DNA of 64,000 bases, taken from positions 3,380 to 67,379 of the forward strand of contig JAFTJQ010000069.1 in assembly GCA_017456285.1 (NCBI GenBank), in the 5' to 3' direction. Origin of the DNA: Lentisphaeria bacterium. GTDB taxonomy: Bacteria > Verrucomicrobiota > Lentisphaeria > Victivallales > Victivallaceae. Every line of letters starts with the position of its first letter. The first letter of the stretch is position 1. The position numbers and the translations under genes are program-made. Of the stretch, positions 21,633 through 52,632 are shown one piece after another. Below the pieces are notes generated by a model that had not been told where the DNA came from, did not search any database, and worked only from the letters and a program-made list of their open reading frames with translations.

Positions 21633-22400
21633 CTATAATTTATGATAATAAAACGGATAATTTTTGTTGTAATCAGCTTTATCCTTAACTAAATCAGCCG
21701 CATTTTTTTCGCCTGAAGTTTTCGGAGGCTCAACTGCTGCGGCACTGCCGTCAATAAAACACATATTGATTTTGCCGCCGTGACGGGCAGCCATACCATT
21801 ATTCCAACCGCTGATACAGACAGATGCACCCTGATTGCCGTGAGTTGTCGGATTGAAAGTTGAATCATGAGCGTAAAATACATCACTTGCTGACTTAACA
21901 TTTTTAGCATTGATGTACTGTTCAGGTTTAGCACCTGACCACTCTGCACCGTTTACTCCGGTATAACTAACAACTCCCTGAACCCACGGAACACGATTTT
22001 CCGCCCAAGCATGGCCGTCGCAAATGGTTACACCGTAACCGTAGAGCAAAGCGATATCAGTAGCAGATGAAATCAAGGAAGTTGAGGGGCAATATGCCTC
22101 TTTTGCCGCCTTTGCATAGCTGATATACTTCAAGTAACGCAATTGAGAGTTCCAACCTGTGACAGAAGCGCCGATGTCAGGAACCCAAGTTTTGAGCGGA
22201 TGAAGCACCCACATACCATTATTATCATCAGCATACATCGCACCTGCCAAAGCCATCTGCTTTAAGTTGCTGACACATGAGATTGCACGGGCTTTTTCAC
22301 GAGCTTTATTGAGGGCGGGAAGCAACATTCCTGCGAGAATCGCAATGATTGCAATAACCACCAACAATTCAATTAATGTGAATTTTAATAATTTTTTCAT
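21633..22400 (-). CDS. prepilin-type N-terminal domain / H-X9-DG (DUF1559-like) pseudopilin-like protein P1
   Basis: [43 protein letters not shown]-terminal [13 protein letters not shown] has exactly 9 residues between H and DG. Confidence 0.85.
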
Positions 22401-22489
22401 TTTTGTTCTCCTTTTATTAATCTTTTTTTTACTTTTATCAGCAGAAAAAAATAATTTTGCCGATAATTTTACAAATAATTATTTTAATA

Positions 22490-22523
22490 TTTCACCGAAA
22501 TTGAAGTAACGGTTGTCACTGCA
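22490..22523 (-). promoter_or_regulatory. conserved leader stem-loop plus GTGAAA element, copy 1 (upstream of P1)
   Basis: Sense strand tgcagtgac-AACC-gttacttca-atttcg-GTGAAA. Lies 29 nt downstream of the -10 box and 89 nt upstream of the ATG. Confidence 0.5.
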
Positions 22524-22552
22524 AACGAGGAAATAAAAAATAACTTATCTAT

Positions 22553-22580
22553 ATTATAGTATATTTTTAGAAAATGTCAA
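22553..22580 (-). promoter_or_regulatory. near-consensus sigma70 promoter of P1
   Basis: Sense strand ctaTTGACAttt-(N16 spacer)-TATAAT. Confidence 0.55.
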
Positions 22581-28727: not shown

Positions 28728-28809
28728 TGTGGGGACTCCTGCCCCTCCCACGCAAGGGCAAAAAGCCTTTGCTCAATAGAGATGCGAAAATCAAAAATTT
28801 TCACATCAC
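28728..28809. repeat. inverted-repeat arm B
   Basis: Reverse complement matches 25628-25716 (about three quarters of positions by eye, two small indels). Confidence 0.7.
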
Positions 28810-28822
28810 TTCAAGTTGCTTT

Positions 28823-30900: not shown

Positions 30901-30902
30901 TT

Positions 30903-35689: not shown

Positions 35690-35694
35690 TAATT

Positions 35695-36921
35695 TTACTT
35701 TCTATTGCTTAGAACGCCAACTAAAATCATTGCCATTGCAATCGGTGCATTAGTCCAACCGCTGTAAATGCTTCCAGCTCCACCCTCGTAGCAGTTTCCG
35801 CCGCCGTAAGATTTTGCCTGACAATCATACATGCCACGCCAGCAGCCTTTGAGTTCAACTCGTTCACTGCCGTCATCCTGAATTGAAGCAAGGAATTTAC
35901 CAAGTTTCTGTGCTGTTTTGAGATACTTCGGATTATTCCAAGCCGCTAAAGCCATACCGCAATAGACCCAGTTGACGGTGTAAATCAAATCAACCAAGTG
36001 TCCGCCGATCGGGGCTTCGTAATGCTCTGCCGGTGGAATACCATACGGATTTTTGTCAATTCTGGTCATTAAACTATTGTAAATTTTATCCGCAAGTTTT
36101 TCGCCTGCTTTGGCATGTTTCGGGAAAAACAACATCGCGCCTGCCAAAATCATTAAGTAACCCAATTCGCTCGAATTAGTAACATCTATTTTTTCGCTTA
36201 TCCAAGCAATGTAGCGGTCAATCGCTTTCTGACACTCCTGATACTCAACTGATTTTTTATCAGAAATATCCTGATAGAGTATGAGTGAAGTCATAACCGG
36301 CACCGCCCAGTGCGGCAATTCCAAACGCCCTGCATAGACTCGATTCGGGTCTTTTTCTGAATCTTTCATCTCTCCCGGATTGTTTTCGTCAAAAACATTA
36401 TTGAAAACTCGAAGCAAGTCAGCGGCAAGGAGTTTACCCCATTTAGTCATCTCATAGGTGCGGTCAAGTTCCTTATCCAGTTTCGCCATAAGCAACTGAA
36501 TAGTGCAGACCCAGCCATTATCGTCAATCCACAAATTGAAGTTGCGTTGAATGTGAGTCCAAGTCCAACCGCCGATAAGTGAACGCTCATCCATGCGATT
36601 CAATAGACCGCTTCGAAAATAGAGAAAGTCCAACAAATCTTTGGCAGTTTTCGCATCCTGCTTTCTATCCATGTATTTACCTGCCAGATAGTAAAGCAAA
36701 GCGACTTCAAAATTGCAATCACTGCGTCTTTGCTCCAGCACTTCCAAACCGTCAGCGTATGAAGTTACCACAGGGAAATGGTCGTGAATCTCCTGCAAAG
36801 CAGTGTTGTTTTTTGTTAAAAGCAATCTCTCTCCGACACCCCATGTGCCTCCTCCCGTCATAATCGGGGAGGAGCGAAACCAATTCATATTGCGGATGGC
36901 ACTACGAAAATAAGTATTCAT
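35695..36921 (-). CDS. hypothetical protein, possibly (alpha/alpha)-barrel glycan-active enzyme
   Basis: 408-aa ORF in tight operon spacing, no signal peptide, helix-rich with repeated W/Y-rich segments. No family recognised with certainty. Confidence 0.4.
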   Translation of the reverse strand: MNTYFRSAIRNMNWFRSSPIMTGGGTWGVGERLLLTKNNTALQEIHDHFPVVTSYADGLEVLEQRRSDCNFEVALLYYLAGKYMDRKQDAKTAKDLLDFLYFRSGLLNRMDERSLIGGWTWTHIQRNFNLWIDDNGWVCTIQLLMAKLDKELDRTYEMTKWGKLLAADLLRVFNNVFDENNPGEMKDSEKDPNRVYAGRLELPHWAVPVMTSLILYQDISDKKSVEYQECQKAIDRYIAWISEKIDVTNSSELGYLMILAGAMLFFPKHAKAGEKLADKIYNSLMTRIDKNPYGIPPAEHYEAPIGGHLVDLIYTVNWVYCGMALAAWNNPKYLKTAQKLGKFLASIQDDGSERVELKGCWRGMYDCQAKSYGGGNCYEGGAGSIYSGWTNAPIAMAMILVGVLSNRK

Positions 36922-36922
36922 T

Positions 36923-39685
36923 TTATTTTGACACCTTTACTAATTGTTCCATTAAATCAGCCAATTTGCTTTTGAATTTAAGCAAATCCTTGTCAGTAAT
37001 ATTGCAAGTACGGGCATTTCCTGACCACTCAAGTTTGAGCATATCCAAAATTTTCCTGCTTGCTTCATGGTTCGGATTTGCTTTGGCAAGTTCCTCTGCA
37101 TAAGTCAGGTAACGACCGTCATTATAACTCTCACGCAAAAGTTCCATTCTCAATGACGGAATAAGTTGATTATCCTCACGATACATCAATATACCGTCCG
37201 CAGGGGCTCTGCGGGTTGAAGTCCACGGCTTTGTATCATAAACCATTCCGGTACCGTAGTGGAGTTCCCAGAGGAAAGTTGATTCAAGTCCCAGTTGATA
37301 CATTTTGTAGAAATGCAATCTCAAACCGACATTATTGGGATAATTCATCATATTGAATGAAATTGGTGAAAAATCATTATTCCAATACCAGCCGACACGC
37401 TTGCCGCGGGATTTCAAGCCCTCAATATCGCAAAGAACATTGTCGCCGGGGAAGTAGTTGCTATTGAAAATAAAGTAATCGACTATCTTTTCACCGCCGG
37501 GGACATCATCTCCGTGATTCGGGAAGCAGTAGCAAGTCATGAGCTTCATGCCTGTCAATTTTTTAAGTTCAGTAAGCAAATTAATAAGTTCTGAATTATC
37601 CGGCTTCATTTTAAAAACTCTCTCCAACTGCCACGGAGTTTCAAGTTCGTCGTAATAAATATAAGTCTCTTTGCTTGCTTCGGGCTTAATTTTTTTGACA
37701 ATTTCCGCATCTTTTTCAAAGAATGGGAACTTATCTCTGACAAATGCTTCGGCACTGTCAAATTTACGATTTTTGACATACGGATAGATGTTTTTCAACC
37801 AGCCGTAGTACCACGGCAGAGAACCTGAAAATACCAAATTGAACTTGTCATACATCGCTTCCCATTCAGGATAAAGTCCCCATTTCTCCTCATCAAGCCA
37901 TTCGGGACGGCTGTTTCCGGTATGAGGCATAAATCCGTAGTCAATAATGATATTACGCATAGTGTGATTCAATTCATCTTCGGTAATATTTTTGAATTGA
38001 CCATACTTAATCCACGGCTTTGCCATGTAAGACATAAAGACAAACATCTTCGGTTTAGCGGGCAAATTAAAGTTGCGGACTTTCAAAGTTACCGGAACTG
38101 TAATTTCTGAACCGTCGCTGTCTGCAACGACGAATTTTCCCTTGTAAATACCGGCTTTGGTATCTCTCGGCACTTTGACGGTTGCAAAATAACTTATTGA
38201 GTTATCCGCCACGGTCAAGTCGGTAGTTAAATGCTTACTCAATGGGTCGGGAAAAATTCCCTCTCCTTTTATTTCAAAGTCAAGTACCCGATGAACGCTC
38301 AAATTTGCTTTATCAAAATTCTCAATTGAAAATTCTTTCACGGTCAAATTTTTAACATCTTTGTCAAAAGGCATAACTCTAACTTGAAAACTTGCAGTTT
38401 CATCACCTGCGGCATCGAGTGAAACGCTCTGGGGAAGCGGCATTTTTTCTTCCAGAATTTTTCCGCTTGCTTCTTTATTCATAGATGAAGCAGTATAGAG
38501 GAAAAAGTTTTTCTTGAAAAAATCTTTTTTATTCGCATTCGCCACTGCCATGAAGCGGTGAAGAGTCTTTTTATTTTCTTCAAGAACTTTGGCAGGATTC
38601 TGGGCGTTTTCAAGTTCAGCTTTTAAATTCTTAAAATATTCAACTTTGGTTTTTGCATAGAGTTTATCAAGTACCTCAAACAGCCCTTTAACTGAATTTC
38701 CGGCATAACGGTATTCAGGTGATCTCCAAAGCACCTCTTCGCCGTTGCGAATTTCGAAGTAAAATGGGATGCTGTGATTAACATAAGTAAAATTAAAATC
38801 CACCTTATTTACACCGACATCCAATTTGATTGTGCCGATTTTGCTGTCAATTTTAGCACTTCTGCAAACATACAAATCGCCTGCGATAGCATCTTTGCCC
38901 AAGTTGCGAAGTGTAAAAGTCTTGCTGAACTTAAATGAATCAGCAGTAAAAATATCAGGCATATCAACTGCGACAGATGATTTATTCAAAATCACTTTTG
39001 CATATTGACTCCAGTTGTGGAAACTATCTCCGATTTGAGATGCCGCAGCATACTCATCAAATTCCGCATTGCCACGACCGATCAAAGCAACAAAACTTCT
39101 ATCAGGGTAAATCGGCACTTGTGATAATGGAATTGCCATCTCCATGAACCATCTGCCCTCACCATTAGAGACGGCGACTTTGACATCTTTCATATTGATA
39201 GTAACTTTTTCCGCATTGCGGTTATGGAAATCAGTTTGACCGAAGCGATCAACGAAAATCGCCTGACATGAACCTGAAGCCGCCCCTACTCCCGCAGAGA
39301 AAATTCCGGTGCTGAAAGCAAATTCCATACCGTCATTTTCCCAGCAGAAACGTTTAGCTGTGCCTCCGGGGACATTGGGATTAACTGCTTCAATTCCGTA
39401 ATATAAATAATTATCATCAGCGGCAAGTTTTACATAAGTCGGATATTTTTCTTCGGTGCGGTTATATTGAGCGGCACATTTACCGAGAAGAAACATCTTA
39501 ATATTCTGTGAATTTTTCCACAATGGTTCATCAAGTTTGCCGTCAATTACAATTTCACTATTACTATAAGGAACATTTACTGAACTTTTTTGTTCAATCA
39601 AAACCTCTCTTGCCAAGCTATGTTGAGCAGCAAATAGTCCCGAAAAAAGACAAAGTCCCCCTATAACCCTATTTAAAATCTTCAT
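36923..39685 (-). CDS. secreted CBM9-like domain protein, putative glycoside hydrolase (DUF4091-like C-terminal region; uncertain)
   Basis: Signal peptide MKILNRVIGGLCLFSGLFAAQHSLA. VIDGKLDEPLWKNS CBM9-like motif. 920 aa. Confidence 0.4.
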   Translation of the reverse strand: MKILNRVIGGLCLFSGLFAAQHSLAREVLIEQKSSVNVPYSNSEIVIDGKLDEPLWKNSQNIKMFLLGKCAAQYNRTEEKYPTYVKLAADDNYLYYGIEAVNPNVPGGTAKRFCWENDGMEFAFSTGIFSAGVGAASGSCQAIFVDRFGQTDFHNRNAEKVTINMKDVKVAVSNGEGRWFMEMAIPLSQVPIYPDRSFVALIGRGNAEFDEYAAASQIGDSFHNWSQYAKVILNKSSVAVDMPDIFTADSFKFSKTFTLRNLGKDAIAGDLYVCRSAKIDSKIGTIKLDVGVNKVDFNFTYVNHSIPFYFEIRNGEEVLWRSPEYRYAGNSVKGLFEVLDKLYAKTKVEYFKNLKAELENAQNPAKVLEENKKTLHRFMAVANANKKDFFKKNFFLYTASSMNKEASGKILEEKMPLPQSVSLDAAGDETASFQVRVMPFDKDVKNLTVKEFSIENFDKANLSVHRVLDFEIKGEGIFPDPLSKHLTTDLTVADNSISYFATVKVPRDTKAGIYKGKFVVADSDGSEITVPVTLKVRNFNLPAKPKMFVFMSYMAKPWIKYGQFKNITEDELNHTMRNIIIDYGFMPHTGNSRPEWLDEEKWGLYPEWEAMYDKFNLVFSGSLPWYYGWLKNIYPYVKNRKFDSAEAFVRDKFPFFEKDAEIVKKIKPEASKETYIYYDELETPWQLERVFKMKPDNSELINLLTELKKLTGMKLMTCYCFPNHGDDVPGGEKIVDYFIFNSNYFPGDNVLCDIEGLKSRGKRVGWYWNNDFSPISFNMMNYPNNVGLRLHFYKMYQLGLESTFLWELHYGTGMVYDTKPWTSTRRAPADGILMYREDNQLIPSLRMELLRESYNDGRYLTYAEELAKANPNHEASRKILDMLKLEWSGNARTCNITDKDLLKFKSKLADLMEQLVKVSK

Positions 39686-39720
39686 TTTTTATTCCTTTTT
39701 ATAAGTTTTTTGAACTTATT

Positions 39721-40461
39721 TTACTTTAAGTCAACCCATTTCCAGTCGTAGAACATCGGCTTCCAGTAGGTGTATGATTTCTCACAAACAACTTCGCCGT
39801 CCAAAGCCTCGGTGTGACCGTCAAACATCAGGAAATTAATCTTGCTGTCGTGACGATTCTCCATCGGCGACCAACCGCTTCCGGCATGGACAGTAGAGTC
39901 ATTGACATCATAGTAACCGCCTCTCGCAGAAATAAGGAAAGATGATCTGCCCTTGACTGCACTTTTAGTTTTAGTCGCATTTGAAGCAGAATCTCCGACA
40001 AAAATATGTGCTTCGGGTTTCTGTCCGTGTTCTGCTAACTCATCACGGGTGAAGCGAATTTTTTTCGCATGGCTGTAATTATCCATAACCGCTTCATAGT
40101 GCATACCGTAGGACTGCTGCAAATAAGAGTCCGCATTGGCAGGCTTTTTGCCGAAAGCATAAGTATCTTTCGCCGCAGGACAAATCAGCATATCGGGGTC
40201 AAGTTTGTAGTTGTACCACAAGTAATAAACCCAATTCTGCATAATGTCTCGATCATAAATACGGTAAGCCGCCAAGTAATGACCGTCATTCTCATCTGCA
40301 TAGTGCATTAAATAGACATAGATATTTTTGAGATTATTGTCGCAACTTGCTTTCATTGCACCGTTTTTGGCATTCACACAAGTCGGCAAAACGAGTGTGA
40401 ATGCAACAATGAAAACAGCAATAATACAAATAAGTTCAACTAATGTGAATTTATGTTTCAT
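39721..40461 (-). CDS. divergent prepilin-type N-terminal / H-X9-DG pseudopilin-like protein P2
   Basis: MKHKFTLVELICIIAVFIVAF and RH-DSKINFLMF-DG. Confidence 0.8.
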   Translation of the reverse strand: MKHKFTLVELICIIAVFIVAFTLVLPTCVNAKNGAMKASCDNNLKNIYVYLMHYADENDGHYLAAYRIYDRDIMQNWVYYLWYNYKLDPDMLICPAAKDTYAFGKKPANADSYLQQSYGMHYEAVMDNYSHAKKIRFTRDELAEHGQKPEAHIFVGDSASNATKTKSAVKGRSSFLISARGGYYDVNDSTVHAGSGWSPMENRHDSKINFLMFDGHTEALDGEVVCEKSYTYWKPMFYDWKWVDLK

Positions 40462-40483
40462 GTTATTTCCCTCTTATGAGAAA

Positions 40484-41266
40484 TTAATCGCGTGTTTCCC
40501 ATTTCCAGTTAAAGTAACGAGGCTTCCAAACTGCATAATTATCAGCCATTAAAGCATTTTTATCTAATGATGTAGTATGTCCGTCAAACATTACAACATT
40601 ACATTTTCCACCATGGCGAAGTGCGGCAGGATATGCTTGTGCAGGAGTAAGATTTTTCTCGATAACAGTATTGGTATCATAATCATATAAGCCGCCATTT
40701 GCATTTACTACCATAGTAATGTCAGTATTTGGACTATCTAAAGCAGTTTTTGTCTTTGAAGCATCTGCAGGAGTATCAGCAGCATAAATTAAATCAGACA
40801 TACTTGCCTTTTTCCCTGACAAGGTATCGGAAGTAAAATATTCAACATAAACATGTCCTGCCAGTTTTGTACCATATCCATGAGCAATAGCGGCTTCATG
40901 TATGCCGTAAGAATAGCTTCTTCCTGCATCTTTTCCGGACGGAATATTATCTGCGGGATAGGCATCACTTGCTGATGGACAAACAAAGCCTTTAAACGGT
41001 GCTCCATAAAGAGAATTACATAACATTGCATATGATGATCCTGTTGATTTGGCATAGACATTATAAGGAGGCAAGAAATAACCGTTAAAATCATTTTGAT
41101 AGAATGCGTTATAAGTTCCGAGTTGTTTCAAATTGTTTGTACAAGAAATTGCACGTGCTTTTTCACGGGCTTTGTTAAGTGCGGGAAGCAACATTCCTGC
41201 GAGAATCGCAATGATTGCAATGACAACCAACAATTCAATTAATGTGAAATACAATGATTTTTTCAT
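40484..41266 (-). CDS. prepilin-type N-terminal / H-X9-DG pseudopilin-like protein P3
   Basis: [42 protein letters not shown] and [13 protein letters not shown]. Confidence 0.85.
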
Positions 41267-41301
41267 TTTTTTCGTTCCTTTCGTTGTTTTTTTTACCTAA
41301 T

Positions 41302-41327
41302 ATTTGCAGTAATTTCTCTCTGCAAAT
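41302..41327. promoter_or_regulatory. perfect 8-bp inverted repeat in the leader of P3
   Basis: ATTTGCAG-N10-CTGCAAAT. It shares the half-site ATTTGCAG with the direct repeats upstream of the GH38 gene. Confidence 0.3.
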
Positions 41328-41404
41328 ACCCGAAAATTTGAACTTAATTTTGGTTTTGGTTATTCAAATTTTCTTCTCTTAATTTCGTTTTTGCAATATT
41401 TTAT

Positions 41405-41438
41405 TTTCACCGCAATTGAAGTAAGGGTCATCACTTCA
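41405..41438 (-). promoter_or_regulatory. conserved stem-loop plus GTGAAA element, copy 2 (upstream of P3)
   Basis: Sense strand tgaagtga-TGACCC-ttacttca-attgcg-GTGAAA, 138 nt upstream of the ATG. Confidence 0.5.
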
Positions 41439-41563
41439 GAATTGACTTAAAAATTTTTAACTGCAAAAACTTAACTTGCTTGGTATTTAACCAATTTGCA
41501 CTTTTATAAGGTTTTAACCCCCTTTCTTGTTTTCGTTAATATTAGAAATAACTATACTTTATA

Positions 41564-43594
41564 CTACTTTTCAAAAGTATAAATAAAAACGCTTCCAAGC
41601 CGCCCTGCTCCGCCGACAGCAACTTTGCTTCCGTCAGAATTTACTGCGACACAACTTAATTCAGTATTTGAAGTAATAACTTCATGCGGAATCTCTTTGC
41701 AGACCCGCCCCAAGTCACGCAAACCTCTTTTGCCGTCATAAGCTACCAAATGCCCCAAATCATCAGCATCACCCATTACCGCATAGGCAACTAACCCGTC
41801 CGCAGAAACTGCGATGTCATGCACTTCACCCTCGGCACCGACTGCACCGAGAGCAAAAACGCTTCCGTCAGCCACATTCACCAGCGAAAACACGCCGTCT
41901 TTACTTCCGACGAAGTATCTGCCATCTGCCATAACTCCTGCCGCAGTTGCTTCGGAAAGGAACTTTCTCCCTGCCCGATACGGCAATTCAATATCAGAAT
42001 CAAATTTCGGCAAAACTTTTGCGTCAAAATCGATTTTTTCAGCAGTTTCAGCATATTCGCCATTTTCAAACTTAAATGTTTTGCCCCCGACTTCGGCATA
42101 AACAACGTCGCCAACAAATTTAATATTCTTAATTGTATGGTCAGAATCACTTTCAAGTTTCTCCCAAACCTTGAATGCCTGACACTCTGCAAACTCAACT
42201 CGACTTTGTGCATTTGCACTACGCCAAGCCGAATCTTCAATCATATATTTGCGGAAAGCAAAATACTTTTCAGTCACTTTATCATAATCGCCCAATGGAT
42301 AATAATCTTTGCCGTCAACAAATGAACAATAGTTCCACGGATCTCGACTCTTTTCTTTCGCTTCATTGCGTTTTGCATAAATTTGTCGCAAATCAAGCGC
42401 CATCATCCATGACATATCCTCTCCGTGATTTCCGCTCGGCACATAGAGAATATCATTTTTATCAATTCCGACATGGCAAACTGTTCCGGCAGTCATTTCT
42501 GTATCACCGACAACCCCCATAAATTCAGGTTCTTTACCATTCAGAAAATCGTAGCGGAAGAGATGCAAAATTCCACCGGGATAACAATTTGCACTCTCTC
42601 TGACAACCATATACCACAAAACATTATTTGAATCAAAAGCATGACCTTTCTGTAATTGCGGCGGAGTATTCCGCCAATCTCCGCGGGGTGCAAGCGATGC
42701 AGCGACTTCAAAACTCTCTTTATCAGGGTCTAAACAATAGAGTTTGTCGCTGAAGTGCATACTGAAATAGCACTTGCCGTCCTTGCCGACTTCCCAGTGA
42801 GCAATCAACCTGTGTAAATCCCAATTGTACAAATCCTCCGCTTCTCCTCCGGCAATTCCCAAGTCCTTGATTTCCAAAGTATCAATATCAATTCGCCAAA
42901 TATGTCCGCTGCGGCTGGAGGTATAAATTCCATTTCTATTATCAGAAAAAACCCCGTAAGACCCCATTTCGGTAGTCTGCCCCAAATTCATAACGGACAT
43001 ATTATTTAAGTCAATCCGATAAAGATTTCCTTTGAGGAAAGTTGTACAGAAAAAAGCATTATGCTTCGCATCATAACATCCCCCGTAAATTGAATCGTGC
43101 TTAACCGGAATACCTAAATTCTTTACACTGCCGTCAGCAGGATTATAGATAATTAAGTGCGACCCCTGATATGCCTCATGAATATGCTCATACATTGAGT
43201 CAAAAAGCCAATAAGGATGCTTCGGCGAACGAGCGGTGGTGTGAGTAGTCATCAAAATTCTGCCGTCGGGCAATTCGGTGAGTGAAGTATGAATTTTACT
43301 CGGCGGGATCTCCCTCGGATTAACAAAAAATTCTTCACTTGCATCGAAAATAAACTTCAACTCTCCACTCAAAGTATCATAATGAAATAATCTAACTGAT
43401 AATGGTTGAGATAATTCTCCGCATAATGCCACATACGCATCACGCTCATTTTTGCATAACATAAAGTCCCAAATTGCATTATGCTTGCTGTCGGAAGGAA
43501 ATTTTTTCTGCCTAACAGTACCGCTCGGCAAGAGATCAAAAAACTCCTTCGGCATATCTTTGCAAAAATATTTTTCTTTTAATTCAGCACTCAT
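41564..43594 (-). CDS. hypothetical cytoplasmic protein, beta-propeller-like
   Basis: 676-aa ORF, no signal peptide. Repeated short beta-strand-like segments (GxIYxxxxxGHIWRID-type). No family recognised. Confidence 0.45.
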   Translation of the reverse strand: MSAELKEKYFCKDMPKEFFDLLPSGTVRQKKFPSDSKHNAIWDFMLCKNERDAYVALCGELSQPLSVRLFHYDTLSGELKFIFDASEEFFVNPREIPPSKIHTSLTELPDGRILMTTHTTARSPKHPYWLFDSMYEHIHEAYQGSHLIIYNPADGSVKNLGIPVKHDSIYGGCYDAKHNAFFCTTFLKGNLYRIDLNNMSVMNLGQTTEMGSYGVFSDNRNGIYTSSRSGHIWRIDIDTLEIKDLGIAGGEAEDLYNWDLHRLIAHWEVGKDGKCYFSMHFSDKLYCLDPDKESFEVAASLAPRGDWRNTPPQLQKGHAFDSNNVLWYMVVRESANCYPGGILHLFRYDFLNGKEPEFMGVVGDTEMTAGTVCHVGIDKNDILYVPSGNHGEDMSWMMALDLRQIYAKRNEAKEKSRDPWNYCSFVDGKDYYPLGDYDKVTEKYFAFRKYMIEDSAWRSANAQSRVEFAECQAFKVWEKLESDSDHTIKNIKFVGDVVYAEVGGKTFKFENGEYAETAEKIDFDAKVLPKFDSDIELPYRAGRKFLSEATAAGVMADGRYFVGSKDGVFSLVNVADGSVFALGAVGAEGEVHDIAVSADGLVAYAVMGDADDLGHLVAYDGKRGLRDLGRVCKEIPHEVITSNTELSCVAVNSDGSKVAVGGAGRLGSVFIYTFEK

Positions 43595-43655
43595 TTTTTT
43601 TACTTTCCCTAATTTTTTTATATTTCCTAATACGAATAGGAAAATCTCTATATAT

Positions 43656-43683
43656 ATTATAGCTCAACTTTTTTAAATGTCAA
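43656..43683 (-). promoter_or_regulatory. near-consensus sigma70 promoter
   Basis: Sense strand ctaTTGACAttt-(N16 spacer)-TATAAT, the same extended -35 context as the P1 and P5 promoters. Confidence 0.55.
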
Positions 43684-43758
43684 TAGCAAAAAGGGAATTT
43701 TTTTTTAATTTTTTTAAAAATTGAATTGTATAAAGGGAAAAGCCGGATAATTCCACAA

Positions 43759-43794
43759 TAAAAAAGCGTGTTGTTTTGAACCAAAACAACACGC
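43759..43794 (-). terminator. rho-independent terminator of pseudopilin gene P4
   Basis: Sense strand GCGTGTTGTTTT-ggttc-AAAACAACACGC followed by a T-run. 12-bp perfect stem. Confidence 0.75.
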
Positions 43795-43832
43795 CAAGGA
43801 GAATAGATTTCAATGAAATCTACTTTAGTTTT

Positions 43833-44570
43833 TTAGAAAGTATCACCCTCTTCATAGATGTAACCTGCTTGTCCTGCACGGTGTCCGCCGAAGTCCCAAG
43901 CAGTTGCAGTTCCACCCTGAATCTGTTTTTTGGTGAGTGCTTCAACGTGACCGTCAAGCATTGCTGCATTAGCTTTGTTGTTATGACGGCAGTGAATTGC
44001 ACGAGCAGCCTGACCGCCTACACCGTCAGACCACTGCATTTTGTTGTAAGTGGTATTGGTGGTAACTGAGTCGATGAAAAGAATGTTGCTTGCAGTTGAT
44101 TTCGGCCAGTAGATAGCCTGTGAATACACTTGAGCATTGCCGGCAAAGTTTTCCATAAGCACGAAAACTGTACGGTTACATGAACCGTAAGCACCATTTA
44201 CATAAAAGAGGGTCGGATCTCCGGCATATTTAGCGCCTGAATGCCATGCAGGGCAAGCGAGCCAACCTTGCGGAACGACATAGTCTACACGGTCAGTGGC
44301 GTTATTCTGAATATAACCTGCACGAGCAAGAATTTTCGGCCAAGCCTTCATAGTTGTATTATCCAAACCATTGGCAATCAAAAGTCCGTTGTGATCGCCT
44401 GCATAAAACATAACATACTGCGAACACTGTTTGAGGTTGCTTTTACAACTTGCTGAACGAGCGGAAGCACGGGCTTTGTTGAGAGCCGGAAGCAACATTC
44501 CTGCAAGAATCGCAATGATTGCAATGACCACCAACAATTCAATTAAGGTGAAATTAAAGATTTTTTTCAT
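43833..44570 (-). CDS. prepilin-type N-terminal / H-X9-DG pseudopilin-like protein P4
   Basis: [42 protein letters not shown] and [13 protein letters not shown]. Confidence 0.85.
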
Positions 44571-44719
44571 TTTTTTGTCTCCTTGTTATTAGTTTTTTTG
44601 TGTTTTTTGACTGCCGTAAATTAGACAGTCCGGATTTATTTTTGAGTTTATTTATTTCCTTTTTCCTCCTTTTTGTTATATTCAGCATTGGTTAATGCCG
44701 AAATGGTTAATATTTATTA

Positions 44720-44754
44720 CTTCACAATAATAGAACTTACGGTTGTATGTTCTA
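44720..44754 (-). promoter_or_regulatory. conserved stem-loop plus GTGAAG element, copy 3 (upstream of P4)
   Basis: Sense strand agaacatac-AACC-gtaagttct-attatt-GTGAAG. The stem sequence differs from the other copies but pairing is kept. Confidence 0.45.
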
Positions 44755-47813: not shown

Positions 47814-48668
47814 ATGGATAAAAACGTCATGAATAATGTAAAAAATAATCAAATTCAAATTCATCGAATTTTCGGCGAAATGTCGAAACTTCAAAAATCC
47901 TACGGACTGCGGATAATCAGCAGCCACATGGATATAAAATCATCTGTCAATTGTTATGATAAATTCCCAATGCGTAAGTTTGAATACTACTCTCTGAGTT
48001 ATCTGGTTTCAGGCAAAGCCAAATTCAAAACCGAAGAAACGGGAGAGATAATCTTTCAAGCCCCTGCGTTTGTGATTATGGCACCTAATGTCCTGAATTG
48101 TTACGGCAGTATCGACGGAACTATCTATCATGAGGATGCAATCTGCTTCACCGGAGAAATCGCCGATAATCTCGTAAAATCAGGAGTTTTGAAAGTCGGA
48201 GTTTTCCCGACCGCAATTTTGCGAAAAATGAATAAAATTACGGAATTATTCAACTCCCCCTCCGAACATGCTCAATTAAATGCCAATATGGAATTGCAGA
48301 AACTTATTTTTGAAATATACAACGAGCGGGTACAATCAAATTATCCGGATAAACCGATTCAAAAACTTATTCAGGAGATTTCCAATAATATACATCACTG
48401 GTATCAGGTAAGCGAATTAGCTGAACTTGTCGGAATGAGTCTGTCAACTTTTCGCAGAAACTTCCTCAAAGAAACCGGTATGCTCCCGAAACACTACATT
48501 GAAAACCTGAAACTTCGCCATGCCGCCAATGATTTAGTTAATAGCACTTTAAGTATCAGTGCCATTGCTAACAAGTATGGATACTTCGATCCCTATCACT
48601 TCAGCAGGCGATTCAAAGCTATTATCGGAACTTCACCTGAAAAATATCGAAAAAACTTGCAAAAATAG
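47814..48668 (+). CDS. AraC family transcriptional regulator
   Basis: C-terminal double HTH: VSELAELVGMSLSTFRRNFLKETGMLPKHYIENLKLRHAANDL..YGYFDPYHFSRRFKAIIGTSPEKYR. Confidence 0.85.
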   Translation: MDKNVMNNVKNNQIQIHRIFGEMSKLQKSYGLRIISSHMDIKSSVNCYDKFPMRKFEYYSLSYLVSGKAKFKTEETGEIIFQAPAFVIMAPNVLNCYGSIDGTIYHEDAICFTGEIADNLVKSGVLKVGVFPTAILRKMNKITELFNSPSEHAQLNANMELQKLIFEIYNERVQSNYPDKPIQKLIQEISNNIHHWYQVSELAELVGMSLSTFRRNFLKETGMLPKHYIENLKLRHAANDLVNSTLSISAIANKYGYFDPYHFSRRFKAIIGTSPEKYRKNLQK

Positions 48669-49561: not shown

Positions 49562-51406
49562 TTATTTAGCGTATTGAGCCATAATTTTCAAGAGATATTT
49601 CATTCCTTCAGGCGGCATAGATTCTTCGATGAAGTTACCATTTAAATCATACTGCTGCATAATTCCATAGACGGTCATGACAAAGACTTTGTCCCGACAA
49701 ATCAAAGCAGTTTCGAGGTAACTTGATGAAATTATATACGGTCTGTCGCTTGAATCAAAAAGATTTTTGCCGATAGAGTAATCACTTGTTTCATTGGTAC
49801 AGCCCAAAATATCCTGCATAATTGTCGTTGATACATCCATGGCAGAGGTGCGGTAATTTACAGTAGCGGATTCACGGTTAAGTCCGAAAATCACAAGCGG
49901 CACATGGGTTTGGTAGCGGGCGAAGTTGCTATTATGTCCCCAATTCTGCATTTGAGATTCTCCGTATTCATTGCCGTGGTCGGCGGTAATAATCACGATT
50001 GTATCTTCCCCGATTGCCTGACGGATATTATTCTCTTCAAAGAATTTATTGATGGCATAATCCATATAATAAGTAGCATCTCTGGTAAAATTAAGCATAT
50101 CTTTTTTAGTTTTGTCATCATTGGTGATATTGAGGTAATTAACTTTATTCATGGTGCTTCCGAACTTGCGTTGAAATCCCTCTTCAATTGAATTGCCGTG
50201 CAGTCCGTCTAAAAACAGGAAAGCAAAATACGGTTTTGATTTGTCCCGATTTTTGAGGAAATTTGATAAATTCTCGAAGCAGCTTTTATCTCTATCAAGT
50301 TTAGTTCTGCCTTTTGTATGCTGTTCGATATCGGGGATATTTACGAAAATCGTGCGATTAAATGGCGGTGAAGCAAGCGTCCCGCTTGAGAAAATTTTTA
50401 CCTCATAGTTATTCGCCGCAAATGAGTCAATCATTGCCGCTCCGGAACCGGAACGCAATGCCTGATCAAAATAGAATCCGGGAATTCCGTAGAAAAGACT
50501 GAACACCCCCGTTTTGGTACAATTCCCCCCTGAAAAGTGCTGCATAAATTTGGCACTTGGGAGGTCTTCCGACATCTGATAAAGTCGCGGCATGACCTCG
50601 GAATTAAACATATCGCCTCGCATACTGTCAACGAGGATAAAGAGGACATTTTTCTGCTTCTCGGTTTTTTTGAAATTGAGTTTATTCAGCGGATACTTCA
50701 TAATCTCACCCGAAACACTGCTCTGTACTTTCTGTGCGGGGGTATACCCCATTCTCATCAATTTTCTGGTAGCAGTCATGGCGTATTTAAGCGGCAGTGC
50801 ATCGGTACGAATCAAATACTCCCGATACCCGTGAAAAGCACACCAGGCATGCACCGCATTGAAAGTAAGAAACGCCATGCCGATAATTAAAAACCAGACA
50901 ATACAAATTTTAGGGAACTTGAATTTATCAGTGATTTTTTGGATACCCCATTCGCCGACGACAATTGCTCCGACAATTAAAATCAAGCTCAAAATCATCG
51001 TTAATGGAAAACTTACCAGCTCAAAAGCCGCAGGGGAACAAAATAATCCGATCATCGGGATATTAATATGAAAGCGGTATTGTGCATAAACAACAATATC
51101 GGCAAAAAGCAGAAAAATTAATAGCGAACTCAAACTGATTGCACTTATTTTGAAAGCCTTTTCCCCGCCGAAACGCACCAATTGCAGAATCATCCATAAC
51201 CCGAATGAAAAAGCCCCTAAATGTCCGATAGCAAAAATAATTGAATAACATATCCCTCCGAGTGTGGAATTATTTAAGTTAATAAAATGCAAGTAAACAC
51301 ATGACATCAGCATCCAAATAATCCCATTGATAAATGCAAATTGCATGGTCGAAGTAAATTTATATTTATTCAAAAAAATTTTTATTTTATCCCAAATTTT
51401 TTTCAT
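49562..51406 (-). CDS. DUF3413/sulfatase-like inner-membrane protein (YejM/PbgA-like, alkaline-phosphatase superfamily)
   Basis: About 5 N-terminal TM helices followed by NVLFILVDSMRGDM and ITADHGNEYGE sulfatase-fold blocks. Confidence 0.7.
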   Translation of the reverse strand: MKKIWDKIKIFLNKYKFTSTMQFAFINGIIWMLMSCVYLHFINLNNSTLGGICYSIIFAIGHLGAFSFGLWMILQLVRFGGEKAFKISAISLSSLLIFLLFADIVVYAQYRFHINIPMIGLFCSPAAFELVSFPLTMILSLILIVGAIVVGEWGIQKITDKFKFPKICIVWFLIIGMAFLTFNAVHAWCAFHGYREYLIRTDALPLKYAMTATRKLMRMGYTPAQKVQSSVSGEIMKYPLNKLNFKKTEKQKNVLFILVDSMRGDMFNSEVMPRLYQMSEDLPSAKFMQHFSGGNCTKTGVFSLFYGIPGFYFDQALRSGSGAAMIDSFAANNYEVKIFSSGTLASPPFNRTIFVNIPDIEQHTKGRTKLDRDKSCFENLSNFLKNRDKSKPYFAFLFLDGLHGNSIEEGFQRKFGSTMNKVNYLNITNDDKTKKDMLNFTRDATYYMDYAINKFFEENNIRQAIGEDTIVIITADHGNEYGESQMQNWGHNSNFARYQTHVPLVIFGLNRESATVNYRTSAMDVSTTIMQDILGCTNETSDYSIGKNLFDSSDRPYIISSSYLETALICRDKVFVMTVYGIMQQYDLNGNFIEESMPPEGMKYLLKIMAQYAK

Positions 51407-51518
51407 ATCAATTTTATCCTACGTTTGCTTAATAACTGATTTACTTAATATAATATGGATAATAGAAAAATGCAAATATTTAGCCGATTTAATTTTTTAT
51501 TTTTTTTGTCTGAAGCTA

Positions 51519-51546
51519 TTGACAATTTAAAATTTTGTGCTATACT
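51519..51546 (+). promoter_or_regulatory. near-consensus sigma70 promoter of P5
   Basis: ctaTTGACAatt-(N16 spacer)-TATACT. Confidence 0.55.
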
Positions 51547-51566
51547 ATTAGTAGGTTCACAATAAT

Positions 51567-51600
51567 TGAGGTGACAACTGTCACTTCAGGTACTGTGAAA
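51567..51600 (+). promoter_or_regulatory. conserved leader stem-loop plus GTGAAA element, copy 4 (upstream of P5)
   Basis: tgaggtgac-AACT-gtcacttca-ggtact-GTGAAA. 9-bp stem, 21 nt after the -10 box and 43 nt before the ATG. Confidence 0.55.
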
Positions 51601-51643
51601 AAGAGCAAAAACAATAAAAAAAAGAATAAATGAAAGGAAAATT

Positions 51644-52363
51644 ATGAAAAATTTATTCAAATTCACCCTCATTGAGTTGTTGGTGGTCATTGCAATCATT
51701 GCGATTCTTGCAGGAATGTTGCTCCCTGCCCTCAACAAAGCTCGTGAAAAAGCTCGTGCAGTTTCATGTACCAACAACAAAAAACAATGTTTGCTTGCAA
51801 TTAACATGTATTGCCAGGATCATAATGGTGCAATGATTCTTCGCTCAAGAAATCTTGCTCCTGCTAATTGTACTTGGTTCAATCGCTTGAAACAGAATGG
51901 TTACATGCAGGATCTGAAAATTGCTCAATGTCCGTCTTTACCGCACATGCCGATTAAAGATGATGATAATAATGCCGGCCGTCAAAATACCTTCGGCATG
52001 CCGAGAATGGTTGATGTTTGGTCTCCTTACTTGGGAACAAGTGCTATGACATTCCCCGCAGGTGAATCCAATGACTGCGGTATGATGAATATTTACAATA
52101 TGAAAAGCAGCAAAATGATCATGGCTGATGCAGCAAAGGCTGTTAACTCTGATCAAATTTGGCAATGGAACTTGAATGGTGTAGGTACTAATTTGGCAAT
52201 GTTCACTCACGGTGGCAGAAATAGCATTGGTTGGTCTGATGGTCATGTCGATTCAATGGATCCCAAAGCGGTAAGAGCTGCTTTAGATGATGATGATTAC
52301 AATGATGCATTTGCTTACTATATTTCAGGGGAAGCAGCGGCACAGAGTTTGGCTGCTAATTAA
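51644..52363 (+). CDS. prepilin-type N-terminal / H-X9-DG pseudopilin-like protein P5
   Basis: [42 protein letters not shown] and [13 protein letters not shown]. Confidence 0.85.
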
Positions 52364-52386
52364 TTTTGAAGTAGCATAATATTTTT

Positions 52387-52424
52387 AAGAGCATGAGATT
52401 TTTTTAGAATTTCATGCTCTTTTT
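52387..52424 (+). terminator. rho-independent terminator of P5
   Basis: AAGAGCATGA-N15-TCATGCTCTT followed by TTTT. Confidence 0.7.
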
Positions 52425-52632
52425 ATTTGCAAAGCAAAAAAATGAAGTTATATTACCGAAGTGTTAATCACCGAAGAAAAGGAAAAAATTATGAAATTAA
52501 AATCAATAAATCGCTTGCAATTCGGCGATGGTTAGGGGGGCAGTTTTCGGCGGAGCGGCTCTCTCTTACATCGGTTATTCTTTCAAATAATTGCCTCAAT
52601 TTTACAAATAAACACTCGGAGTAAAAAATTTT

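What the first reader, a model, noticed from the sequence alone, without database searches (positions are those of the whole stretch)
51567..51600. Conserved stem-loop plus GTGAA element upstream of four H-X9-DG pseudopilin-like genes, with compensatory stem changes
Four of the five pseudopilin-like genes are preceded on the sense strand by the same ~34-nt element; the fifth sits 22 nt behind another copy. Each element is an 8-9 bp stem around a 4-6 nt loop, then 6 variable nt, then GTGAA(A/G). The copies are: 22523-22490 tgcagtgac-AACC-gttacttca-atttcg-GTGAAA; 41438-41405 tgaagtga-TGACCC-ttacttca-attgcg-GTGAAA; 51567-51600 tgaggtgac-AACT-gtcacttca-ggtact-GTGAAA; 44753-44720 agaacatac-AACC-gtaagttct-attatt-GTGAAG. 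Pairing is preserved by covarying positions. Pair 5 from the loop is G-C in three copies and C-G in the 44.7-kb copy. Pair 3 is G.U, G.U, G-C and U-A. A C x U mismatch in copy 1 is A-U in the others. For P1 and P5 a near-consensus promoter (CTATTGACA..TATAAT/TATACT) lies 21-29 nt upstream, so the element is transcribed as a 5-prime leader. For P3 and P4 I found no good promoter, so it may be intercistronic. The distance to the ATG varies from 43 to 149 nt and no U-run follows the stem. It therefore looks like neither a terminator nor a simple RBS-sequestering hairpin. I do not recognise it as a known riboswitch or leader. It could be a family-specific RNA (or DNA) regulatory or processing signal for this huge paralogous family of unknown function.
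Basis: seen in the sequence. Interest (0 to 1): 0.7.

Follow-up and report, generated by a model that had tools for sequence, protein, structure and literature searches.

The report
Invertible start-codon switch in pseudopilin genes
The "stem-loop" is not an RNA element but one of two DNA recombination sites that flip a 100-210 bp cassette carrying the ribosome-binding site, start codon and first 13 codons of each pseudopilin-like gene, so this gut Lentisphaeria bacterium can switch these genes on and off one by one.

Summary
The four copies exist exactly as described and are far above chance. They are not an RNA motif.

Each palindrome is the left site of a DNA inverton: 11-bp arm, invariant AC, 11-bp arm. 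The partner site lies inside the gene, in the codons for IELLVVIAI. Its centre GT is the start of the first Val codon.

The segment between the sites is 104-210 bp. It holds the Shine-Dalgarno sequence, the ATG and codons 1-13. The promoter lies outside it.

Public assemblies show the same loci in both orientations:
- Three of the four window loci (22.5, 44.7 and 51.6 kb) occur flipped at the predicted junctions, within 97-99% identical colinear flanks.
- A flipped-state N-terminus I predicted by simulation (MVNIYYFTIIELTVV) exists as a real protein.
- Ten of 30 protein clusters (>=90% identity) contain both ON and OFF N-termini.

Strand exchange maps to the central AC dinucleotide. GTGAA is the outer half of a bipartite half-site, mirroring the Phe-Thr codons TTCAC.

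The "compensatory" changes all come from one copy, and other copies have A.C mismatches.

No recombinase gene was found. This is a new member of the known inverton class, with repeats too weak for a generic seed-based inverted-repeat finder.

The parts
51519..51546 (+). Fixed promoter of the 51.6-kb gene (TTGACA-16-TATACT with TG). It lies outside the invertible cassette.
   Evidence: 11 of 12 match. The same promoter is kept upstream of the left site in ON and OFF relatives.
51566..51589 (+). The crossover dinucleotide AC is at 51577-51578.
   Evidence: The palindrome is also reported by the repeat finder as 51556-51576 / 51579-51599.
51595..51600 (+). GTGAAA box. It is the distal sub-motif of the inner-left half-site. 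It mirrors TTCAC at 51556-51560 and the Phe-Thr codons TTCAC at 51662-51666.
51579..51682 (.). Invertible cassette of P5 (104 bp). It carries the distal 5' UTR, the Shine-Dalgarno sequence, the ATG at 51644 and codons 1-13 ([13 protein letters not shown]).
   Evidence: Simulated. The OFF junction at 51682|51683 is seen in L093 (ERZ28594066), 98.9% identical downstream.
51672..51695 (+). Right recombination site inside the CDS (TTGAGTTGTTG-GT-GGTCATTGCAA, codons IELLVVIAI). The centre GT is at 51683-51684.
51644..52363 (+). Pseudopilin-like H-X9-DG/DUF1559 gene P5, ON orientation in the window.
22553..22580 (-). Fixed promoter of P1 (TTGACA-16-TATAAT).
   Evidence: 12 of 12 match
22501..22524 (-). 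Left recombination site of P1: TTGCAGTGACA-AC-CGTTACTTCAA.
22362..22511 (.). Invertible cassette of P1 (150 bp).
   Evidence: The OFF-right junction is in L095 (ERZ27316327): 207-1822 equals window 22362-20747 on the minus strand, and 1-220 equals 22305-22524 on the plus strand.
22349..22372 (-). Right recombination site of P1, inside the CDS.
21633..22400 (-). Pseudopilin-like gene P1 (ON).
41416..41439 (-). Left site of P3, with a degenerate core: CTGAAGTGATG-AC-CCTTACTTCAA.
   Evidence: Only the ON orientation was seen in the three orthologous sequences available.
41228..41426 (.). Predicted cassette of P3 (199 bp). Inversion was not observed.
41215..41238 (-). Right site of P3, inside the CDS.
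40484..41266 (-). Pseudopilin-like gene P3 (ON). Gene 5 (39721-40461) follows 22 nt behind and has no sites of its own.
44731..44754 (-). Left site of P4, with divergent but mutually symmetric arms: TAGAACATACA-AC-CGTAAGTTCTA.
44532..44741 (.). Invertible cassette of P4 (210 bp).
   Evidence: L094 (GCA_054290585.1) 686-902 equals window 44527-44743 on the plus strand, while both flanks are on the minus strand at 97-98.6% identity. The predicted flipped peptide MVNIYYFTIIELTVV is found as P0254.
44519..44542 (-). Right site of P4, inside the CDS.
43833..44570 (-). Pseudopilin-like gene P4 (ON).

Best explanation
Each element is the promoter-proximal recombination site of a short DNA inverton that gates translation of one pseudopilin-like gene.

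Anatomy:
- A site is two inverted 11-bp arms (consensus TTGAAGTGACA) around an invariant AC. In several loci there is also a distal TTCAC/GTGAA sub-motif 6 bp further out.
- The partner site is written into the conserved prepilin motif codons I-E-L-L-V-V-I-A-I (TTGARTTGTTG-GT-KGTYATTGCAA).
- A site-specific recombinase exchanges strands at the central AC/GT dinucleotide and inverts the 104-210 bp in between.
- That cassette carries the Shine-Dalgarno sequence, the ATG and codons 1-13. The promoter stays fixed upstream.

Consequence:
- In the ON orientation the gene encodes [15 protein letters not shown]....
- In the flipped orientation the start codon and signal peptide point backwards. The gene body is fused to the reverse complement of the leader (..EV[TI]VV-IAII) without a good ribosome-binding site, so the pseudopilin is not made in functional form.

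Shown: the sites, the inversion at the same loci, the crossover interval, and the promoter position.
Inferred: that switching is reversible within populations, that the flipped state is OFF, and that the enzyme is a serine-type recombinase.
For: 1. The reverse complement of every copy reads like the N-terminal coding motif, for example F-T-E-I-E-V-T-V-V. Left site and rc(right site) match at 20-24 of 35 positions, z 2.5-4.9.
2. Paralogues in Victivallaceae MAG JAZRSP01 show exactly the segment between the two centres reverse-complemented: L002 and L004 against L001 and L008.
3. The same locus occurs in both orientations. L010 against L011/L012 has flanks 99% identical and colinear, with a 110-bp segment at 96% on the opposite strand.
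4. The window's own loci are seen flipped:
   - P4 is flipped in L094.
   - P1 has an OFF junction in L095.
   - P5 has an OFF junction in L093.
   All three are at the junctions predicted. The predicted flipped peptide MVNIYYFTIIELTVV is a real database protein, P0254.
5. Ten of 30 clusters at >=90% identity hold both ON and OFF N-termini. Nine of 184 cluster representatives are OFF.
6. Position 11 stays with the outer arms and position 14 travels with the cassette. Exchange is therefore confined to the AC dinucleotide.
7. Contig L095 joins an ON-right junction and an OFF-right junction of the same gene (55 of 55 identical), which implies both orientations in one sample. L099 has the same layout.
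8. Promoters lie outside the cassette.
Against: - No recombinase gene was found in the window or in any fetched flank.
- No read-level data were available, so within-population switching rests on two hairpin-type contigs and on between-sample differences.
- The P3 locus was never seen flipped, and its left core is degenerate.
- The symmetric divergence of both arms of the P4 left site is not explained by recombinase binding alone.
- Several flipped genes keep an in-frame ATG ahead of an FTxxE-like or LLE-like motif. A second isoform, rather than a plain OFF state, is therefore not excluded.
Confidence: 0.92

Rival explanations
1. The element is a structured 5' leader RNA. The hairpin plus GTGAA is transcribed and acts as a regulatory, stabilising or processing signal, and selection on base pairing maintains the stem.
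For: - The hairpins fold better than shuffles in three of four copies.
- For P1 and P5 the hairpin lies about 20-30 nt downstream of a near-consensus promoter, so it is almost certainly transcribed in the ON state.
- The 44.7-kb copy has three both-sided changes that keep pairing.
Against: - All both-sided changes come from one sequence.
- Pair 8-17 is A.C in 6 of 13 sites, and G.U and A.C mismatches are equally common. This fits DNA dyad symmetry, not RNA pairing.
- The hairpin is split by inversion, and the 3' arm moves 100-200 nt away.
- The 3' half is explained base by base as the inverted repeat of the coding motif.
- There is no Rfam hit.
- A secondary role as a 5' hairpin in ON transcripts cannot be excluded.
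Confidence: 0.04
2. The orientation differences are rare, fixed evolutionary inversions or assembly artefacts caused by the inverted repeat. They are not programmed site-specific switching.
For: - Only consensus assemblies were available, with no read-level evidence.
- Some contigs that end in the cassette are short, and two have hairpin layouts typical of graph ambiguities.
Against: - The same precise junction at the AC dinucleotide recurs at at least four DNA-verified loci and in 10 of 30 gene clusters. These come from independent samples and assemblers, including contigs of 27-90 kb.
- The repeats share only 4-5 bp of uninterrupted identity. That is too little for RecA recombination, and a seed-6 repeat finder does not even pair them.
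- Flanks are 97-99% identical, so the flips are recent.
Confidence: 0.03
3. The inversion is real but is an N-terminus swap rather than an ON/OFF switch. The flipped state produces a second protein form with a different leader peptide, for example MVNIYY-FTIIELTVV, or MFIFDLLQLLEVIVV lacking the MKK leader.
For: - In the window genome the reverse complement of every leader keeps F-T-x-x-E in frame with the gene body.
- Several flipped genes have in-frame ATG starts that gene callers accept: P0013, P0014, P0026, P0067, P0070, P0173, P0183, P0254.
Against: - The flipped ATGs lack a Shine-Dalgarno sequence. P4 has GCCGAAATG flipped against AAGGAGACAAAAAAATG in the ON state.
- Flipped P1 has a stop codon immediately upstream, and flipped P5 has no ATG in the in-frame stretch after the last stop.
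- The alternative leaders have no basic n-region.
- In the sister MAG the F-T codons are not kept: GGTAAA, GACAAA, TTTAAA.
Confidence: 0.08
4. The palindrome is an operator for a dimeric transcription factor that represses the pseudopilin promoters.
For: A 9-11 bp inverted repeat sits at about +13 to +45 relative to strong promoters in P1 and P5.
Against: - P3 and P4 have the site but no promoter.
- The site has a partner in the CDS, and the DNA between them inverts.
- The only regulator in the window is an AraC-family protein at 47814-48668, not adjacent to any site.
Confidence: 0.02

Closest known systems
Partial intergenic / gene-overlapping invertons (Milman et al. 2023, PMC9881135; Chanin et al. 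2023, PMC10028968)
   Same: A short DNA segment bounded by inverted repeats, one repeat inside a CDS and one upstream. It is found in both orientations and changes what the gene encodes.
   Different: - Milman's screen required inverted repeats of at least 22 bp. Here the partners share only 4-5 bp of uninterrupted identity and about 60% over 35 bp.
- Most partial intergenic invertons are long shufflon-like domain swaps. Here a 104-210 bp cassette carries only the RBS, the ATG and 13 codons.
- Neither paper mentions Lentisphaerae or Victivallaceae. Pilin appears only as an enriched family name in Milman's tables and not at all in Chanin's text.
Serine-invertase crossover sites (Hin/hix, Gin/gix, Cin, Pin), from my own knowledge
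   Same: Two imperfect inverted half-sites of about 12 bp flank a 2-bp core where strands are exchanged. The non-palindromic core fixes relative orientation. The outcome is ON/OFF control of a surface structure.
   Different: - Hin flips a roughly 1-kb segment that carries the promoter and the recombinase gene. Here the promoter is outside and no recombinase is nearby.
- One site here is embedded in coding sequence.
- The half-sites look bipartite (TTCAC-N6-TGAAGTGACA).
- Many loci per genome share the system.
Clostridioides difficile cwpV and flgB switches (RecV), from my own knowledge
   Same: The invertible element lies downstream of a fixed promoter, in the leader of the regulated gene. 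One recombinase serves several loci.
   Different: Those switches lie wholly in the 5' UTR and act through termination or post-transcriptional effects. Here the start codon and signal-peptide codons are themselves flipped, and no terminator-like site appears on the gene strand in the flipped state.
Moraxella bovis/lacunata type IV pilin inversion (Piv), the R64 shufflon (Rci) and the Mycoplasma pulmonis vsa locus (HvsR), from my own knowledge
   Same: The inversion junction lies within the conserved 5' coding region of a pilin or surface-protein gene family.
   Different: Those systems keep the 5' end fixed and swap alternative 3' coding cassettes, which is antigenic variation. Here the 5' end flips and there is no alternative cassette, which is phase variation of each paralogue separately.
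E. coli fimS and Bacteroides invertible promoters (FimB/E, Mpi, Tsr), from my own knowledge
   Same: A short invertible element gives reversible ON/OFF control of surface structures in gut bacteria. In Bacteroides, global invertases act on many loci.
   Different: Those elements carry the promoter, and their repeats are intergenic and near-perfect.

Membership tests
Inverton (site-specific invertible DNA element) | The same segment is present in both orientations between colinear flanks. | tested here: met
   L010 against L011/L012. Window P4 against L094, P1 against L095 and P5 against L093. Ten of 30 protein clusters hold both N-termini.
Inverton (site-specific invertible DNA element) | Inverted repeats lie at the two boundaries, and the junction is at a fixed position within them. 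| tested here: met
   The left site and rc(right site) align around an invariant AC, with 20-24 of 35 matches at the four window loci. The junction maps to the AC in every pair. The repeats are unusually weak.
Inverton (site-specific invertible DNA element) | A dedicated site-specific recombinase is present. | tested here: inconclusive
   None was found among 40 window ORFs, by phmmer with Hin and XerD against all ORFs of all loci, or in extra flanks. Whole genomes could not be searched.
Inverton (site-specific invertible DNA element) | Both orientations coexist within one population (phase variation). | tested here: inconclusive
   Contig L095 combines ON-right and OFF-right junctions of one gene (55 of 55 identical). 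L099 has the same layout with 52 of 59 identical. No reads were available.
Serine-invertase type crossover site (hix/gix-like) | A 2-bp crossover core lies between imperfect inverted half-sites of about 12 bp. | tested here: met
   The layout is 11-bp arm, AC, 11-bp arm. Position 11 stays with the outer arms and position 14 moves. The sequences around the AC differ between partner sites, which would block a tyrosine recombinase needing a 6-8 bp identical spacer. That last step is an inference from general knowledge.
Serine-invertase type crossover site (hix/gix-like) | A resolvase/invertase-family enzyme (PF00239) is encoded in the genome and acts on the site. | not testable with these tools
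   No whole-genome access. None was found in the about 600 kb held.
   All three both-sided changes come from one sequence (win_P4). Pair 8-17 is unpaired in 6 of 13 sites. For cells with a change on both sides, 255 of 500 shuffles reach the observed value.
   In flipped loci the two arms are separated by the cassette. Distant DUF1559 genes (L013-L092) lack the element altogether.
Known Rfam family | A match to a curated covariance model. | tested here: not met
   No hit at gathering score in the window. No hit at E<=1 in 51450-51750.
Intrinsic terminator | A GC-rich stem followed by a U-run. | tested here: not met
   No terminator-like sites at the four window loci or in the flipped L010. In the flipped L094 the only one lies on the opposite strand, inside the gene.

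The most novel reading that the evidence does not exclude
One still unidentified recombinase with very relaxed, bipartite half-site recognition independently flips start-codon cassettes at dozens of DUF1559/H-X9-DG pseudopilin paralogues per genome. It uses the conserved prepilin-motif codons themselves as one recombination site. Gut Victivallaceae would then display a combinatorially phase-variable set of pseudopilins. The whole regulon would be invisible to standard inverton finders, because the repeats share only about 5 bp of uninterrupted identity. The flipped state may also yield a leaderless isoform rather than nothing.
Probability: 0.35. Interest if true: 0.8.

Novelty: new member of a known kind. 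Interest (0 to 1): 0.62.

Why it matters
- **Function of the family.** DUF1559/H-X9-DG pseudopilin-like proteins form one of the largest paralogous families in Planctomycetota-Verrucomicrobiota-Lentisphaerota genomes, and their function is unknown. If individual paralogues in gut Victivallaceae are switched by DNA inversion, the products are probably under fluctuating selection. Candidate pressures are phage, host immunity or substrate availability. That points to surface exposure. It also offers an experimental handle, because ON-locked and OFF-locked alleles can be compared.
- **A coding motif doubling as a recombination site.** A strongly conserved coding motif can also serve as a recombination site, so any gene of the family becomes switchable by acquiring just one upstream palindrome.
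- **A blind spot in detection tools.** Functional invertons can have repeats far weaker than the thresholds used by repeat-based detection tools. Surveys of phase variation in metagenomes may therefore undercount them.
- **A caution on RNA motifs.** Palindromic "RNA motifs" with apparent covariation upstream of paralogous genes can be DNA recombination sites.

Tried and rejected
- **RNA motif.** I folded the four copies and searched Rfam at two thresholds. I counted pairs on 13 left sites. This was rejected as the primary explanation. I did not build a covariance model, because the DNA evidence made it unnecessary.
- **Leader pairing with its own CDS.** I considered a long-range RNA helix when the complementarity first appeared. 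I dropped it once flipped loci were seen. The variable N6 regions do not co-vary with the CDS, and L008 has an uncompensated GTAAA against TTCAC.
- **Antisense mini-ORF encoding a prepilin-like peptide.** There is no start codon in P1 or P5, and the T-rich 'EVTVV' is a by-product of the palindrome.
- **Terminator formed in the flipped state, as in cwpV.** No terminator-like site was found on the gene strand.
- **Recombinase hunt.** All of these were negative:
  - Pfam on 40 window ORFs.
  - Five extra flanks.
- **Genome-contig scan with a single protein.** It returned only 9 loci from one MAG. That was enough to reveal the inversion but too few for a census.
- **Metagenome-contig scan with an N-terminally trimmed alignment.** It returned 80 distant DUF1559 loci, none with a left site or OFF signature. 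This is useful only as a negative control showing the system is clade-specific.
- **Literature.** I found no paper linking invertons with Victivallaceae or Lentisphaerae pseudopilins.

Full report
**1. The observation**

The four copies are present exactly as written: 22523-22490, 41438-41405 and 44753-44720 on the minus strand, and 51567-51600 on the plus strand. They are not chance. ACTTCA-N6-GTGAA with at most 1 mismatch occurs 9 times against 1.14 expected, and none of 100 shuffles reach 9. The longer consensus occurs twice against 0.03 expected.

Each copy folds into the hairpin described. The promoters claimed for P1 and P5 are real consensus matches, 12 of 12 at 22580-22553 and 11 of 12 at 51519-51546. 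P3 and P4 have none on the gene strand. Nothing matches Rfam. The five genes are DUF1559 / N-terminal-methylation-motif proteins. The fifth is divergent and has no Pfam hit.

**2. The clue**

Beyond the three sense-strand copies, one hit of the pattern search is unrelated (28800-28816). The other five lie on the opposite strand in the same loci. One is the mirror half of the 51.5-kb palindrome. Four are the reverse complement of the codons for F-T-L-I-E-L at the start of a pseudopilin gene.

Read backwards, each element encodes a prepilin-like N-terminus:
- F-T-E-I-E-V-T-V-V (P1)
- F-T-A-I-E-V-R-V (P3)
- F-T-I-I-E-L-T-V-V (P4)
- F-T-V-P-E-V-T-V-V (P5)

The real genes read F-T-L-I-E-L-L-V-V. 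The element is therefore an inverted repeat of a stretch 20-50 nt into its own gene.

**3. The DNA between the two repeats inverts**

A protein-guided scan of reference genomes returned nine loci from one Victivallaceae MAG, JAZRSP01.

- In L001 and L008 the layout equals the window: promoter, TTGAAGTAACA-AC-TGTCACTTCAA, leader, SD, ATG, ...TTGAGTTGTTG-GT-TGTCATTGCAA.
- In L002 and L004 the segment between the AC and the GT is reverse-complemented. The ATG and [15 protein letters not shown] now point towards the promoter. The gene body is fused to ...L-L-E-V-T-V-V.

Among the genes with a recognisable anchor in that MAG, five are flipped: L002, L003b, L004, L006 and L009.

**4. The same locus occurs in both orientations**

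A search of 5.8 billion proteins with P5 gave 98 ON and 9 OFF N-termini among the 120 best cluster representatives. Within clusters at >=90% identity, both forms coexist in 10 of 30 clusters.

At the DNA level, L010 (ERZ28018778, OFF) and L011/L012 (GCA_017507705.1 and ERZ27256853, ON) are the same locus. Both have the same downstream BNR and RNB genes. Flanks are 99% identical and colinear, and a 110-bp segment is 96% identical on the opposite strand.

**5. The window's own loci flip at the predicted positions**

I defined the sites and simulated inversion for each window locus.

| Locus | Left site | Right site | Cassette |
|---|---|---|---|
| P1 | 22524-22501 | 22372-22349 | 150 bp |
| P3 | 41439-41416 | 41238-41215 | 199 bp |
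| P4 | 44754-44731 | 44542-44519 | 210 bp |
| P5 | 51566-51589 | 51672-51695 | 104 bp |

The window belongs to a 75-kb contig of an NCBI 'Lentisphaeria bacterium' MAG.

- **P4.** The simulated flipped P4 peptide, MVNIYYFTIIELTVV-IAII, exists as protein P0254. Its contig L094 (GCA_054290585.1) matches window 44527-44743 on the plus strand. Both flanks match on the minus strand at 97-98.6% identity.
- **P5.** P0163 (MTVV-IAII) lies on L093. This contig joins rc(inner-left arm) to window 51683-52438 at 98.9% identity.
- **P1.** P0275 lies on L095 and shows the OFF-right junction at 22362.
- **P3.** It was seen only in the ON state, in three sequences. Its left core is degenerate.

**6. Where strands are exchanged**

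Comparing ON and OFF versions shows that position 11 of the 24-bp site stays with the outer arm. Position 14 travels with the cassette. The exchange is therefore confined to the central AC (GT on the CDS side), which is invariant in every site examined. On the CDS side these two bases are positions 1-2 of the first Val codon.

Two imperfect 11-bp inverted arms around a 2-bp non-palindromic core is the geometry of serine-invertase crossover sites. The bases flanking the AC differ between partner sites, which argues against a tyrosine recombinase needing a 6-8 bp identical spacer. That step is an inference from general knowledge, not a test.

**7. What GTGAA is**

In close relatives (L100, L101) and in P5, the left site is an extended palindrome: TTCAC-N6-TGAAGTAAYA-AC-TATYACTTCA-N6-GTGAA. 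The inner-right half-site has the same TTCAC as the Phe-Thr codons. GTGAA is therefore the distal part of a bipartite half-site, or a vestige of the duplication that made the repeat. It decays to GTAAA, GGTAAA or TTTAAA in the sister MAG, so it is not essential in all lineages.

**8. RNA against DNA**

On 13 left sites, 90% of cells pair. All three both-sided changes come from the P4 site. Pair 8-17 is A.C in 6 of 13 sites. A.C and G.U mismatches are equally frequent, as expected for DNA dyad symmetry. The hairpin does not exist in flipped loci.

The symmetric divergence of both arms in P4 is real and not fully explained. Quasi-palindrome templated correction is a plausible DNA-level cause, which is an inference. 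The P4 site is functional, because it is found flipped.

**9. Consequence**

The promoter is outside the cassette and is unchanged in OFF loci. No terminator-like site appears on the gene strand in the flipped state. The flipped gene lacks its SD, its ATG and its basic leader. Gene callers fall back on GTG (MTVV-) or on fortuitous ATGs without an SD. I infer translational OFF for the pseudopilin. Downstream genes would still be transcribed. These include GH123/CBM9-like proteins, a 1083-aa protein and BNR sialidase-like genes in relatives. A leaderless isoform is a minority possibility.

**10. Distribution**

Eighty distant DUF1559 loci from metagenomes (GC 0.36-0.71) have no left site and no OFF signature. 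Not every family member in the MAG has a site either, for example L006 on the minus strand and window gene 5. The system is a lineage-specific addition in low-GC Victivallaceae/Lentisphaeria.

**11. Relation to what is known**

Invertons, including ones overlapping gene starts, are an established class. I found no report for Lentisphaerae or Victivallaceae, or for pseudopilin genes of this family.

The distinctive points are:
- a cassette holding only the RBS, the ATG and 13 codons;
- one site written into a conserved coding motif shared by a huge paralogous family;
- repeats so weak that a seed-6 repeat finder never pairs them, well below the 22-bp criterion of one published screen.

I classify it as a new member of a known kind.

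**12. Gaps**

No recombinase gene was found. Within-population switching is supported only by contigs L095 and L099, which join ON-type and OFF-type junctions. Read-level analysis and reconstitution are the decisive tests.

Noticed in passing
L002 1530-1680: An orphan cassette of the same design but with an AT centre: TTGCAGTGACG-AT-TGTCACTGCAA, SD, ATG, MIKLSQFTFIEL, TTGAGTTGACA-AT-GGTTAGTACAA. A consensus promoter faces it from the other side (rc CTTGACAATTTTATTTTATATGCTATAAT). It is not joined to a recognisable DUF1559 body. It could be a decayed inverton or one serving another gene type.
   Followed up: partly
Proteins P0239, P0062, P0039 (Victivallis-type): Some relatives carry an upstream, in-frame direct duplicate of the N-terminal motif (MKKNFTLIERLVS... 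about 55-150 aa ...[13 protein letters not shown]). This is a same-orientation copy of the motif instead of an inverted one. It may be a different rearrangement or insertion at the same hotspot.
   Followed up: no
L095 1-220 and L099 1-170: Two short MEGAHIT contigs read rc(gene body), cassette, gene body. This layout needs both ON-type and OFF-type junctions in one sample. In L095 the two bodies are identical (55 of 55). In L099 they differ at 7 of 59 positions, which could mean two strains or exchange between paralogues.
   Followed up: partly
It was never seen flipped, so it may be a locked-ON relic.
   Followed up: partly
window 7088-8086 and 8096-9634 (minus strand): Leucyl-tRNA synthetase appears split into two adjacent ORFs. 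One holds the N-terminal catalytic and editing domains, the other the C-terminal anticodon-binding domain. They are 9 nt apart. This could be an assembly error, a frameshift or stop, or a genuinely split gene.
   Followed up: no
window 39721-40461 (minus strand): The fifth pseudopilin-like gene has a divergent N-terminus (KFTLVELICIIAV), no Pfam hit and no recombination sites. It sits 22 nt behind P3, so it can only be affected indirectly.
   Followed up: partly
window 28876-44570 (minus strand), L094, L010: Switchable pseudopilin genes head or punctuate long same-strand gene strings. These encode large secreted-looking proteins, GH123/CBM9-like enzymes, a metallophosphatase and, in relatives, BNR sialidase-like proteins. 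A sulfatase (49562-51406) and a GH38 mannosidase (23303-25426) are nearby. This suggests a link to glycan foraging.
   Followed up: no
L101 1-1254: A BREX gene (BrxL) and a HipA-like kinase lie a few kb upstream of a switchable pseudopilin gene in GCA_054290585.1. This is probably coincidental.
   Followed up: no
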